Positions 581-28,948 of a stretch of 64,000 nt of DNA are shown piece after piece. The translations under genes were made by a program, and so were the position numbers. How positions within the stretch are numbered: the first letter of the stretch is position 1; each line of letters starts with the position of its first letter. This DNA comes from the human T2T-CHM13v2.0 reference genome, Homo sapiens, in assembly GCF_009914755.1 (NCBI RefSeq), contig NC_060925.1; one strand, written 5' to 3'. The notes under the pieces were generated by a model that worked only from the letters and a program-made list of their open reading frames with translations, searched no databases and was not told the DNA's origin.

Positions 581-2290
<1,710 letters not shown>

Positions 2291-2398
2291 TGCACACTCC
2301 TTTTTATAGTATATTTGAATTGCGTGACTAGGTGGGGGGAGGAAATAGCCTGATGTTAATTTTTTGTGTTTTGATTTGCCTTTTTTTTTCTTCCACAG

Positions 2399-3982
2399 AA
2401 TAATGCATATACTGCCATGTCAGATTCCTACTTACCCAGTTACTACAGTCCCTCCATTGGCTTCTCCTATTCTTTGGGTGAAGCTGCTTGGTCTACGGGG
2501 GGTGACACAGCCATGCCCTACTTAACTTCTTATGGACAGCTGAGCAACGGAGAGCCCCACTTCCTACCAGATGCAATGTTTGGGCAACCAGGAGCCCTAG
2601 GTAGCACTCCATTTCTTGGTCAGCATGGTTTTAATTTCTTTCCCAGTGGGATTGACTTCTCAGCATGGGGAAATAACAGTTCTCAGGGACAGTCTACTCA
2701 GAGCTCTGGATATAGTAGCAATTATGCTTATGCACCTAGCTCCTTAGGTGGAGCCATGATTGATGGACAGTCAGCTTTTGCCAATGAGACCCTCAATAAG
2801 GCTCCTGGCATGAATACTATAGACCAAGGGATGGCAGCACTGAAGTTGGGTAGCACAGAAGTTGCAAGCAATGTTCCAAAAGTTGTAGGTTCTGCTGTTG
2901 GTAGCGGGTCCATTACTAGTAACATCGTGGCTTCCAATAGTTTGCCTCCAGCCACCATTGCTCCTCCAAAACCAGCATCTTGGGCTGATATTGCTAGCAA
3001 GCCTGCAAAACAGCAACCTAAACTGAAGACCAAGAATGGCATTGCAGGGTCAAGTCTTCCGCCACCCCCGATAAAGCATAACATGGATATTGGAACTTGG
3101 GATAACAAGGGTCCCGTTGCAAAAGCCCCCTCACAGGCTTTGGTTCAGAATATAGGTCAGCCAACCCAGGGGTCTCCTCAGCCTGTAGGTCAGCAGGCTA
3201 ACAATAGCCCACCAGTGGCTCAGGCATCAGTAGGGCAACAGACACAGCCATTGCCTCCACCTCCACCACAGCCTGCCCAGCTTTCAGTCCAGCAACAGGC
3301 AGCTCAGCCAACCCGCTGGGTAGCACCTCGGAACCGTGGCAGTGGGTTCGGTCATAATGGGGTGGATGGTAATGGAGTAGGACAGTCTCAGGCTGGTTCT
3401 GGATCTACTCCTTCAGAACCCCACCCAGTGTTGGAGAAGCTTCGGTCCATTAATAACTATAACCCCAAAGATTTTGACTGGAATCTGAAACATGGCCGGG
3501 TTTTCATCATTAAGAGCTACTCTGAGGACGATATTCACCGTTCCATTAAGTATAATATTTGGTGCAGCACAGAGCATGGTAACAAGAGACTGGATGCTGC
3601 TTATCGTTCCATGAACGGGAAAGGCCCCGTTTACTTACTTTTCAGTGTCAACGGCAGTGGACACTTCTGTGGCGTGGCAGAAATGAAATCTGCTGTGGAC
3701 TACAACACATGTGCAGGTGTGTGGTCCCAGGACAAATGGAAGGGTCGTTTTGATGTCAGGTGGATTTTTGTGAAGGACGTTCCCAATAGCCAACTGCGAC
3801 ACATTCGCCTAGAGAACAACGAGAATAAACCAGTGACCAACTCTAGGGACACTCAGGAAGTGCCTCTGGAAAAGGCTAAGCAGGTGTTGAAAATTATAGC
3901 CAGCTACAAGCACACCACTTCCATTTTTGATGACTTCTCACACTATGAGAAACGCCAAGAGGAAGAAGAAAGTGTTAAAAAG
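2399..3982 (+). CDS. YTHDF2: YTHDF2 coding exon 4 (528 codons, about residues 45-572): P/Q/N-rich low-complexity region plus the complete YTH m6A-binding domain
   Basis: Polypyrimidine tract and ttccacAG acceptor end at 2398. The frame reads [16 protein letters not shown]...; YTH motifs [25 protein letters not shown] and [10 protein letters not shown] (aromatic-cage Trps) are present. Donor AAG|GTAACC at 3982/3983. Length 1584 nt, phase 0-0. Confidence 0.98.
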
Positions 3983-4679
3983 GTAACCCACTTCTTCTTA
4001 TTAAGATTTTTAGGGAAGGAGGAACCAGAGAGAACAGAAGAGGTATTATATAGTGAACCGTTAATAAAAACTCTGTAAATGAATACAGTATCAGCCTAAC
4101 AGTTCAAGGCTTTATAGAAGTATAATTGGTTTTAATACTTGAACCCTAATGTGAAGGAATGTGAGAACATTAGTAGAGGACAGAAATACGGACTTTGAAA
4201 GGAAAGCAAAAACAGTACAAGGAAATCAGACAGAAACAGTACATGATGCAGAAAGAGGTGAAGAATGAGTCAAAGAGATGCAGAGGGGTAATGGAAGTGA
4301 TAAAACCATAGAAATTAAAGCAGAAGATTGAGTCTATAATATGGCAGAGAAAAATCGAAATGTTCTCTGTTGGATTAACTTGGCCTAGCTGGGGTTTTGT
4401 GGTTATTTTCAAGAGTCAATATGTCATCACCAACTCTTGAAATCACTTCTGTCTTCCCTGTGACAATTGGCGGTGTAAAAGAGTCACTTCTGATTTCCTC
4501 TGTAACAAGTGGGAATCTTGGGCAGAATGATGAGGAATGGATTCAAACTAGAGTTGAATTTGAAAGAGTTGGTAGCGTTTGCTCTGTGAGTATTGAGTGA
4601 ATGTAAACTTTAGGATTATAAGAGGATGATAAAACTGGTTGGAGCAGATAATGATATATTATCTGGGATTTATACTTAC

Positions 4680-4961
4680 TTTTTTTTGGACAGGGTTCTC
4701 TGTTGCCCAGGCTGGAGTGCAGTGGCATGATGTCCGCCCACTCCAGCCTCCACCTTCTGGGCTCAAGTGATCCCCCCATCTCAGCTTCGTGACTAGCTGG
4801 GATCACAGTCATGCACCACCATGCCCGGCTAGTTTTTCATGTTTTTTGTAGAGCTGGGTTTTGCCATGTTGCCCAGGCTGGTCTTGAACTCCTGAGCTCA
4901 AGTGATCTGCCCCTGCCTCCCAAAGTGCTGGGATTACAGGTGTGAGCCACTGCAGCTGGCC
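4680..4961 (-). mobile_element. Alu (J-like), antisense
   Basis: Reverse-complement Alu consensus. Confidence 0.9.
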
Positions 4962-5449
4962 TAGACATTGTTAAATGTAGGAAGTAGGTGAAAAGTTTAT
5001 GAGCAAGGAGAAATTTTTCTTTGAAGATCTGTGTATTAGTGGTTGAGAGAATCCTGAGTTGATTAATCTCAAATATAAAATAAAGTCTAACAAGCAATGT
5101 TTTCCTTAAATTTGTTATGAATTCATAGGGATCTTATACGTGATCTAGGATCTGAGGCATTGTTAGGCTGCTCTATGAGAATTTACTCCTTTTAGCAGTG
5201 GAGGAAGGGCTCGTTGGTACAATCTTCTTGGAGGTACATAGTTGTTAAAGTAGGGATGGTTGCTATTTTATCTTCCAGTGGGTACAGATTAATAAGAAAT
5301 GGGAGTTACACTTGTCAGTGACACTAAAAGCATTGGGAATGGAGAACCAGATTATTGAAAAGTTGGCTAATAAACTTCCTTTTTGATAGTCCTTTAAACT
5401 CCTCTCTTCCCCACAGTTTAATAGTTTAACTTAAAGTCTTCCATATTAA

Positions 5450-8143
<2,694 letters not shown>

Positions 8144-9174: not shown

Positions 9175-10280
<1,106 letters not shown>

Positions 10281-28924: not shown

Positions 28925-28948
28925 GAACGTCAAGGTCGTGGGAAATAA
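28925..28948 (+). CDS. YTHDF2: YTHDF2 terminal exon 5 coding part (ERQGRGK-stop)
   Basis: Acceptor ttttttcttacctctgtAG ends at 28924, followed by GAA CGT CAA GGT CGT GGG AAA TAA. It joins exon 4 in frame to give the known C-terminus ...[15 protein letters not shown]. Confidence 0.96.
   Translation, partial: ERQGRGK

What the first reader, a model, noticed from the sequence alone, without database searches (positions are those of the whole stretch)
2399..3982. YTHDF2 exon 4 would form a stop-free circular ORF (rolling-circle translation candidate)
Seen: the exon is 1584 nt (528 codons), phase 0 at both ends, has no in-frame stop, and carries its own ATG at 2417 in a GCCATG context. A back-splice would join ...AAA AAG to AAT AAT..., which keeps the frame open. 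Four antisense Alus lie just upstream (700-2290) and six sense Alus just downstream (5450-8143). Established: inverted Alus in flanking introns promote back-splicing, long internal exons are m6A-rich, and m6A can initiate circRNA translation. Inference: a single-exon circYTHDF2 could be translated endlessly into concatemers of the low-complexity region plus YTH domain, i.e. a multivalent m6A reader able to nucleate condensates. The reciprocal exon-4-skipped linear mRNA would also stay in frame, encoding a ~51-aa peptide. I do not know whether this has been described.
Basis: partly seen in the sequence, partly recalled or inferred. Interest (0 to 1): 0.8.

Follow-up and report, generated by a model that had tools for sequence, protein, structure and literature searches.

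The report
YTHDF2 exon 4 circle: real, rare, ordinary
The main coding exon of the human m6A-reader gene YTHDF2 could form a stop-free circular RNA, and that circle has been recorded at trace levels, but the open frame is automatic for an exon of this shape and nothing shows the circle is translated.

Summary
Window 2399-3982 is a 1584-nt exon with AG/GT flanks. The host frame has no stop (24 and 45 in the other frames), and the first in-frame ATG is at 2417. Six antisense Alus fill intron 3. Five full and one partial sense Alu lie at 5454-8132.

The open circular frame is not special. Any phase-0/0 coding exon has it. The homologous exons of YTHDF1 (1521 nt) and YTHDF3 (1599 nt) have it too. 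Fan et al. 2022 count such ORFs in 14% of full-length human circRNAs.

The circle is already on record. Zheng et al. 2016 list it with 9 back-splice reads in 8 of 26 libraries, against 866 for circHIPK3. A 2024 table gives the same circle in hg38 coordinates. The YTHDF1 and YTHDF3 circles are in the Zheng table as well.

I found no evidence of translation. The mass-spectrometry absence is uninformative, because trypsin cannot yield a junction peptide.

Best reading: a constitutive exon that back-splices rarely, as a by-product. Concatemeric readers remain speculation.

The parts
2399..3982 (+). YTHDF2 exon 4: 1584 nt, phase 0/0, 528 codons, no stop. It holds the low-complexity region and the whole YTH domain. 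This is the body of the catalogued single-exon circle.
   Evidence: sequence, frame; Pfam YTH PF04146, residues 367-500, E 2.8e-50; PDB 4wqn YTHDF2, E 2.8e-117; circle listed in print
2358..2398 (+). 3' splice site of intron 3: pyrimidine tract and CAG. It would act as the acceptor in both linear splicing and back-splicing.
3983..3990 (+). 5' splice site of intron 4 (GTAACC). It would act as the donor in both linear splicing and back-splicing.
2417..2419 (+). First in-frame ATG of the exon (residue 7 of the exon, Met51 of the 579-aa protein). G at -3 and T at +4.
   Evidence: From recall only: RefSeq's shorter YTHDF2 isoforms start here.
704..1585 (-). Three tandem antisense Alus in intron 3.
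   Evidence: (six minus-strand SRP-like arms)
2047..2278 (-). Antisense Alu 121 nt upstream of the exon.
4680..4961 (-). It can pair with the sense Alus downstream, within the same intron, and so compete with pairing across the exon.
   Evidence: pairs I18 and I20
5454..8132 (+). Cluster of five full sense Alus and one partial (7286-7458), interrupted by a partial antisense Alu at 7556-7712. These are complementary partners of the upstream antisense Alus.
   Evidence: (I4, I7, I11-I13, I17, I19, I22)
28925..28948 (+). Coding part of exon 5: 7 codons and a stop, preceded by AG. It joins in frame to exon 3 if exon 4 is skipped.

Best explanation
Window 2399-3982 is the constitutive main coding exon of YTHDF2. 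It carries 528 of the 579 codons. It is long, symmetric (phase 0 at both ends) and flanked by long Alu-rich introns. The spliceosome therefore occasionally joins its 5' splice site back to its own 3' splice site, helped by pairing between the antisense Alus of intron 3 and the sense Alus of intron 4. That produces a 1584-nt single-exon circle at trace level.

The stop-free circular frame is an automatic result of the exon's ancient phase structure, which YTHDF1 and YTHDF3 share. It is not an adaptation. The circle is most likely a rare splicing by-product without a protein product of consequence.

Shown here or in print: the exon anatomy, the Alu layout, the existence and low read count of the circle, and the shared paralogue architecture. 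Inferred: that Alu pairing drives the back-splice, that within-intron pairing keeps it rare, and that the circle has no function.
For: Anatomy:
- 1584 nt, AG/GT flanks, and 0/24/45 stops in the three frames.

Existence of the circle:
- Zheng et al. 2016 Suppl. Data 1 has the row chr1:29068914-29070498 (hg19), genomic length 1584, spliced length 1584, gene YTHDF2. It records 9 unique back-splice reads in 8 of 26 ribo-minus libraries, 1-2 reads each. In the same table circHIPK3 has 866.
- PMC11536868 Table 3 lists 1:28742402-28743986, also 1584 nt. Both ends are shifted by the same 326,512 from the hg19 row.

The property is generic:
- The YTHDF1 homologous exon is 1521 nt and the YTHDF3 one is 1599 nt. 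Both have AG/GT flanks, phase 0/0 and no stop.
- Their single-exon circles are in the same table, with 20 and 2 reads.
- 14% of full-length human circRNAs carry host-frame rolling-circle ORFs.

Why the circle is rare:
- There are 102 inverted matches of 100 nt or more across the exon, against 319 within intron 4. Of those 319, 122 involve the same 5454-8132 cluster.
- Several within-intron pairs are closer and better matched than the cross-exon pairs. For example, 6809-7089 pairs with 9990-10268 at 86.5% over 282 nt with a 2.9-kb gap. Across the exon the matches are 72-87% with gaps of 3.9-9.1 kb.

No fossil of a circle:
- The chr14 retrocopy runs from exon 4 nt 333-1584 straight into exon 5, so it came from linear mRNA.
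Against: - Lack of function is inferred from low abundance only. No data from neurons, germ cells, stress conditions or RNase R-enriched libraries could be examined.
- DRACH motifs are somewhat more frequent than expected: 36, against 28.7 +/- 4.0 in codon shuffles.
- An AAGAAG hexamer, one of Fan et al.'s IRES-like elements, lies at 3963. In the circle that is about 40 nt before the ATG at 2417. Internal initiation is therefore not excluded.
- Unlike most rolling-circle products, each lap would encode a complete, foldable YTH domain.
- The absence of YTHDF2 from the junction-peptide lists is not evidence against translation. The junction follows two lysines and the next K/R is 134 residues on.
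- All three paralogues keep the circle-competent exon and all three circles are detected. That could reflect conservation, although it is equally what shared gene structure predicts.
Confidence: 0.8

Rival explanations
1. circYTHDF2(exon 4) is translated from the ATG at 2417 by cap-independent initiation (m6A or IRES-like). Having no stop, the ribosome circles repeatedly and makes tandem repeats of the 56.7-kDa unit (low-complexity region plus YTH domain). These act as multivalent m6A readers.
For: - The circle exists.
- The frame is open, has 9 in-frame ATGs and holds a complete YTH domain per lap.
- There are 36 DRACH sites and one AAGAAG hexamer.
Against: - Abundance is trace, with 9 reads in 26 libraries.
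- Validated rolling-circle examples are far shorter. They are 249-361 nt, or 10-22 kDa per lap, against 1584 nt and 56.7 kDa here.
- Reported products are of low abundance and are degraded by the proteasome.
- Stagsted et al. found no evidence of circRNA translation (abstract and section titles).
- YTHDF2 itself is described as a circRNA-degrading protein. An m6A-rich circle would therefore be a substrate of its host gene's product. This last point is inference.
- No YTHDF2 entry appears in the held supplements of two junction-peptide studies. That is weak evidence, because trypsin cannot show this junction.
Confidence: 0.04
2. The circle acts as a non-coding regulator (miRNA sponge), as claimed for circ_YTHDF2 in a methamphetamine lung-injury model.
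For: Chen et al. 2023 (J Physiol) is cited as showing that circ_YTHDF2 sponges miR-145-5p to target RUNX3. I saw only the citing sentences and reference entries. The paper itself is not held.
Against: - I could not check the species, the exon content of that circle, or the data.
- At about 1% of circHIPK3's read count, stoichiometric sponging is unlikely. This is inference.
- I did not scan the exon for miRNA sites.
Confidence: 0.06
3. The back-splice reads are artefacts (reverse-transcriptase template switching, trans-splicing or mis-mapping) and no circle exists.
For: - There are only 1-2 reads per library.
- Neither study reports RNase R treatment for this circle.
Against: - Both ends fall exactly on the annotated splice sites, giving a length of exactly 1584 nt.
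- The circle appears in 8 of 26 independent libraries and in a second, unrelated study.
- The homologous exons of both paralogues give the same product.
- The YTHDF3 circle resisted RNase R and was sequenced across the junction.
Confidence: 0.08

Closest known systems
Single-exon Alu-flanked exonic circRNAs such as circHIPK3 (exon 2, 1099 nt)
   Same: A long internal exon with canonical AG/GT back-splice and long flanking introns carrying inverted Alus. Both are in the same table of Zheng et al. 2016.
   Different: About 96-fold fewer back-splice reads, 9 against 866. The exon is almost the whole coding sequence of its gene, so each back-splice costs a functional mRNA.
circYTHDF3(3) and the YTHDF1 single-exon circle (paralogous exons)
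   Same: Homologous exon, phase 0/0, stop-free, with an in-frame Met near the start. All are detected as single-exon circles. The YTHDF3 circle is RNase R-resistant, junction-sequenced and RBM15-dependent.
   Different: Read counts are 20 (YTHDF1), 9 (YTHDF2) and 2 (YTHDF3). RNase R resistance and RBM15 dependence were not tested for YTHDF2. I equate circYTHDF3(3) with the long exon because the 'GGgt' exon end quoted in the paper matches the exon end I see.
Rolling-circle (infinite-ORF) circRNAs: circEGFR, circNFIB, circTau 12->10, circPSAP, circPFAS, circABHD12
   Same: Length divisible by 3 and no stop in the host frame.
   Different: Those circles are 249-361 nt, or 10-22 kDa per lap, and have reporter, MS or polysome evidence. 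This one is 1584 nt and 56.7 kDa per lap, has no translation evidence, and would repeat a whole folded domain.

Membership tests
Exonic circRNA made by back-splicing | Exon bounded by canonical AG acceptor and GT donor | tested here: met
Exonic circRNA made by back-splicing | Reads that join the exon's 3' end to its 5' end | tested here: met
   Published tables only: 9 reads in 8 of 26 libraries, and a second dataset. I could not examine raw reads.
Exonic circRNA made by back-splicing | Resistance to RNase R / absence of a poly(A) tail | not testable with these tools
   Neither study reports this for the YTHDF2 circle. It was shown for the paralogous circYTHDF3(3).
Exonic circRNA made by back-splicing | Complementary repeats in the two flanking introns | tested here: met
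   102 inverted matches of 100 nt or more across the exon, at 72-87% identity. They are outnumbered by 319 within intron 4.
Rolling-circle ORF circRNA (rcORF as defined by Fan et al. 2022) | An ORF of at least 20 aa with a start codon and no stop when the circle is read repeatedly | tested here: met
   definition
Rolling-circle ORF circRNA (rcORF as defined by Fan et al. 2022) | Junction-spanning peptide or ribosome footprint | tested here: inconclusive
   YTHDF2 has 0 occurrences in the held supplements of Fan 2022 (4 files) and of the 2024 immunopeptidomics study (7 files). A tryptic junction peptide cannot exist here. No Ribo-seq data could be examined.
Rolling-circle ORF circRNA (rcORF as defined by Fan et al. 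2022) | Protein concatemers (a ladder of multiples of the unit) | not testable with these tools
   The unit would be 56.7 kDa. This needs a bench experiment.
m6A-initiated circRNA translation | m6A mapped on the circle and dependence on reader or initiation factors | not testable with these tools
   Only the motif count is available: 36 DRACH sites against 28.7 +/- 4.0 in codon shuffles.
YTH-domain m6A reader (protein encoded by the exon) | Complete YTH domain | tested here: met
   Pfam PF04146, residues 367-500 matching profile positions 2-134 of 135, E 2.8e-50. PDB 4wqn YTHDF2, E 2.8e-117.

The most novel reading that the evidence does not exclude
In some cell state (stress with reduced cap-dependent translation, or high RBM15/m6A-writer activity), the exon-4 circles of YTHDF2, and by homology those of YTHDF1 and YTHDF3, are translated around the junction for two or more laps. 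This would give tandem YTH readers of 113 kDa and above. Each repeat is a complete low-complexity region plus YTH domain. Such proteins would bind poly-methylated RNA with higher avidity and seed condensates. Because YTHDF2 targets m6A-bearing circles for decay, it would then also limit its own circular template.
Probability: 0.03. Interest if true: 0.7.

Novelty: already known. Interest (0 to 1): 0.2.

Why it matters
If the circle were translated, it would be a rare rolling-circle product whose repeat unit is a whole, foldable RNA-binding module. That would give a natural route to multivalent m6A readers and would bear on how YTHDF condensates form.

As things stand, the value is mostly cautionary. 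A stop-free circular frame follows automatically for every phase-symmetric coding exon, so on its own it should not be treated as a signal. The useful concrete points are these:
- The circle exists, at about 1% of circHIPK3's read count.
- All three YTHDF paralogues make the homologous circle.
- Standard tryptic proteomics cannot see this junction, so a fair test needs another protease.

Tried and rejected
Literature searches that found nothing relevant:
- Names for the circle. 'circYTHDF2' variants gave 3 papers, all only citing Chen et al. 2023. Six phrase variants gave 0 papers. circAtlas-style and other names gave 4 papers, none about a YTHDF2 circle.
- YTHDF2 + circRNA + 'rolling circle translation' gave 44 papers, of which 25 were listed. 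All were reviews or unrelated by title and abstract start.
- A first coordinate search with guessed 6-digit prefixes gave 15 papers that I took for PMID noise. One of them, PMC11536868, turned out to be a real hit once the exact coordinates were known.
- The other candidate from the exact-coordinate search, PMC13632056, was a PMID and not a coordinate.

Supplement look-ups with no YTHDF2:
- Fan 2022: 4 files.
- Stagsted 2019: 9 files.
- Guo 2014: 3 files.
- Immunopeptidomics 2024: 7 files.
- Stored files may be cut, so these absences are weak. Zheng's Suppl. Data 2 (back-splice ratios) showed no YTHDF2 in the held part, so I have no circle-to-linear ratio.

Search for a circRNA-derived retrocopy:
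- A search of the window's own genome with the exon scored 5 candidate places.
- The only close copy, on chr14 at 98%, is a 5'-truncated retrocopy of linear mRNA.
- No permuted copy (exon end followed by exon start) was seen. The tool warns that its counts are lower bounds.

Rfam:
- The mir-1268 and mir-3135 matches in the introns are below gathering score and sit on Alu arms. I rejected them as Alu-derived.

Tools and papers that were unavailable:
- Chen et al. 2023 is not held.
- Paper reading closed, before I could query an RNase R long-read catalogue (isoCirc).

Not done: I did not scan for miRNA sites or fold the Alu duplexes.

Full report
**What is at 2399-3982**

The stretch is exon 4 of human YTHDF2.
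- It is 1584 nt long. A pyrimidine tract and CAG precede it, and GTAACC follows it.
- Frame 0 gives 528 residues without a stop. One lap of the other two frames holds 24 and 45 stops.
- The product matches Pfam YTH (PF04146) at residues 367-500, E 2.8e-50. It matches the solved YTHDF2 YTH domain 4wqn at E 2.8e-117. The exon therefore carries both the low-complexity region and the complete m6A-binding domain.
- There are 9 in-frame ATGs. The first is at 2417 in the context ACTGCCATGT, with G at -3 and T at +4.
- From recall only: RefSeq's shorter YTHDF2 isoforms start at this methionine.

**The rest of the gene**

The window's own genome is held, so I fetched 8 kb upstream.
- Canonical splice sites and an open frame pick out three upstream coding parts. 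They are a 27-nt first coding part (-2888..-2862), a 25-nt exon 2 (-2351..-2327) and an 80-nt exon 3 (-1750..-1671). Together they make 132 nt, or 44 codons.
- I recognised these partly from memory of the protein's N-terminus.
- Exon 5 contributes 7 codons and a stop. The total is 44 + 528 + 7 = 579 codons.
- Intron 3 is 4069 nt and intron 4 is 24,942 nt.

**Alus**

I mapped Alus in two ways. One was SRP-like Rfam matches to Alu arms. The other was blastn with one Alu of the window as the query.
- Every Alu block from 8 kb upstream to the exon is antisense.
- Six lie in intron 3: -1553..-1272, -688..-421, three at 704-1585, and 2047-2278.
- Downstream the order is as follows. Then come sense Alus at 5454-5708, 5755-6046, 6457-6765 and 6796-7100, and a partial sense copy at 7286-7458. 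A partial antisense copy follows at 7556-7712, then a sense Alu at 7839-8132. Beyond that the orientations are mixed.
- Inverted matches of 100 nt or more number 102 across the exon, 0 within the upstream part of the gene, and 319 within intron 4. Of those 319, 122 involve the 5454-8132 cluster.
- Some within-intron pairs are closer and better matched than any cross-exon pair.
- It is established from the literature (recalled, not read here) that such competition lowers circularisation. That fits a circle which forms, but rarely.

**Is the stop-free circle remarkable?**

No.
- A coding exon that starts and ends in phase 0 has no junction codon, and its host frame has no stop by definition. The circular frame is therefore open automatically.
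- The homologous exons of YTHDF1 (1521 nt) and YTHDF3 (1599 nt) are likewise AG/GT-bounded, phase 0/0 and stop-free, with a methionine a few residues in.
- Fan et al. 2022 (passages read) report that 14% of full-length human circRNAs carry host-frame rolling-circle ORFs. They also find about 3.4 finite ORFs for every rolling-circle ORF.

**Does the circle exist?**

Yes, at trace level, and it is already in print.
- Supplementary Data 1 of Zheng et al. 2016 (Nat Commun 7:11215) has a row chr1:29068914-29070498, plus strand. Genomic length and spliced length are both 1584 and the gene is YTHDF2.
- That row records 9 unique back-splice reads. They come from Brain rep1, Heart rep1, Stomach rep1, Brain rep2, BLCA, HCC and HCC_NT (1 read each) and BRCA (2 reads). 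That is 8 of 26 ribo-minus libraries. circHIPK3 has 866 in the same table.
- From a recalled hg19-to-hg38 offset I predicted the hg38 coordinates. They appear in Table 3 of PMC11536868 as 1:28742402-28743986. The value is 0.82 in microvesicle-treated human chondrocytes against 0 in controls, P 0.0089.
- Neither study treated this circle with RNase R.
- The same Zheng table lists the homologous circles of YTHDF1 (1521 nt, 20 reads in 13 of 26 libraries) and YTHDF3 (2 reads). The YTHDF3 circle is listed as 1598 nt, one less than I measure.
[quoted passage not shown] The 'GGgt' exon end that paper quotes matches the end of the long exon.
- A circ_YTHDF2 has also been published as a miR-145-5p sponge in a lung-injury model (Chen et al. 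2023). I saw only citing sentences, because the paper is not held.

**Is it translated?**

There is no evidence either way.
- YTHDF2 does not occur in the held supplements of Fan 2022, which lists 990 junctions from 646 genes with MS support (4 files). It does not occur in the 2024 immunopeptidomics study either (7 files).
- It is also absent from the held circRNA lists of Stagsted 2019 and Guo 2014.
- The MS absences mean little. The junction lies directly after two lysines, and the next lysine or arginine is residue 134 of the unit. Trypsin therefore gives no junction-spanning peptide. By position, chymotrypsin and GluC would give peptides of 16 and 13 residues.
- Points in favour of translatability:
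  - There are 36 DRACH motifs against 28.7 +/- 4.0 in codon shuffles.
  - One AAGAAG hexamer lies at 3963. It is one of the IRES-like elements Fan et al. mutated in circPFAS. By their own argument, though, any sequence over 50 nt contains such an element by chance.
- Points against:
  - Validated rolling-circle circRNAs are 249-361 nt, or 10-22 kDa per lap. This unit is 56.7 kDa.
  - Their products are scarce and are cleared by the proteasome.
  - Stagsted et al. report no evidence for circRNA translation (abstract).
  - YTHDF2 is itself described as a circRNA-degrading protein.

**No genomic fossil of the circle**

A search of the whole genome with the exon scored 5 candidate places and returned 7 matches. 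They are the gene itself, YTHDF3 on chr8, two matches in YTHDF1 on chr20, two matches in a diverged copy on chr5, and a 98% copy on chr14. The chr14 copy runs from exon 4 nt 333-1584 directly into exon 5. It is therefore a 5'-truncated retrocopy of the linear mRNA and not of a circle.

**Verdict**

The circle forms and the frame is open.
- The open frame is generic, the circle is rare and already catalogued, and endless translation into multivalent readers is unsupported speculation.
- I put the by-product reading at about 0.8 and the rolling-circle reading at about 0.04.

Noticed in passing
L005 1483-3081 (chr8, YTHDF3); L006 1488-3008 minus strand (chr20, YTHDF1): The homologous long exons of both paralogues are also phase 0/0, stop-free and multiples of 3 (1599 and 1521 nt). 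Their single-exon circles are in Zheng 2016's table with 2 and 20 reads. The table gives 1598 nt for YTHDF3, one less than I measure, and I did not resolve this.
   Followed up: partly
L004 1501-3596 (chr14): A processed, 5'-truncated retrocopy of YTHDF2 mRNA. Exon 4 nt 333-1584 (97.7% identity) is joined directly to exon 5 nt 1-845 (98.2%). The frame is broken (tblastn splits it into two frames).
   Followed up: partly
L007/L009 (chr5:97870490-97871413): A diverged YTHDF-like copy that is contiguous over the exon-4 equivalent (about 43% protein identity, 70-71% DNA identity). It is probably an old retrocopy, but I did not identify it.
   Followed up: no
window -7999..2278 (L002 plus window start): All ten Alu-containing blocks in the 10 kb before exon 4, including those upstream of the YTHDF2 promoter, are on the minus strand. 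The first sense Alu appears only at 5454. This is a striking local strand bias.
   Followed up: no
window 733-860, 1028-1154, 5574-5941, 6609-6736 and others: Rfam mir-1268 and mir-3135 matches at 32-60 bits, against gathering scores of 80-83. They all fall on Alu arms, so they are Alu-derived look-alikes and not miRNA genes.
   Followed up: partly
window 3963-3968: A single AAGAAG hexamer sits in the glutamate-rich tail of the exon. In the circle it would lie about 40 nt before the ATG at 2417. The same hexamer was mutated as an IRES-like element in circPFAS by Fan et al.
   Followed up: no
window 3285-3793: RefSeq marks an 'enhancer' functional element inside the coding exon, overlapping the YTH-domain codons. 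I did not examine it.
   Followed up: no
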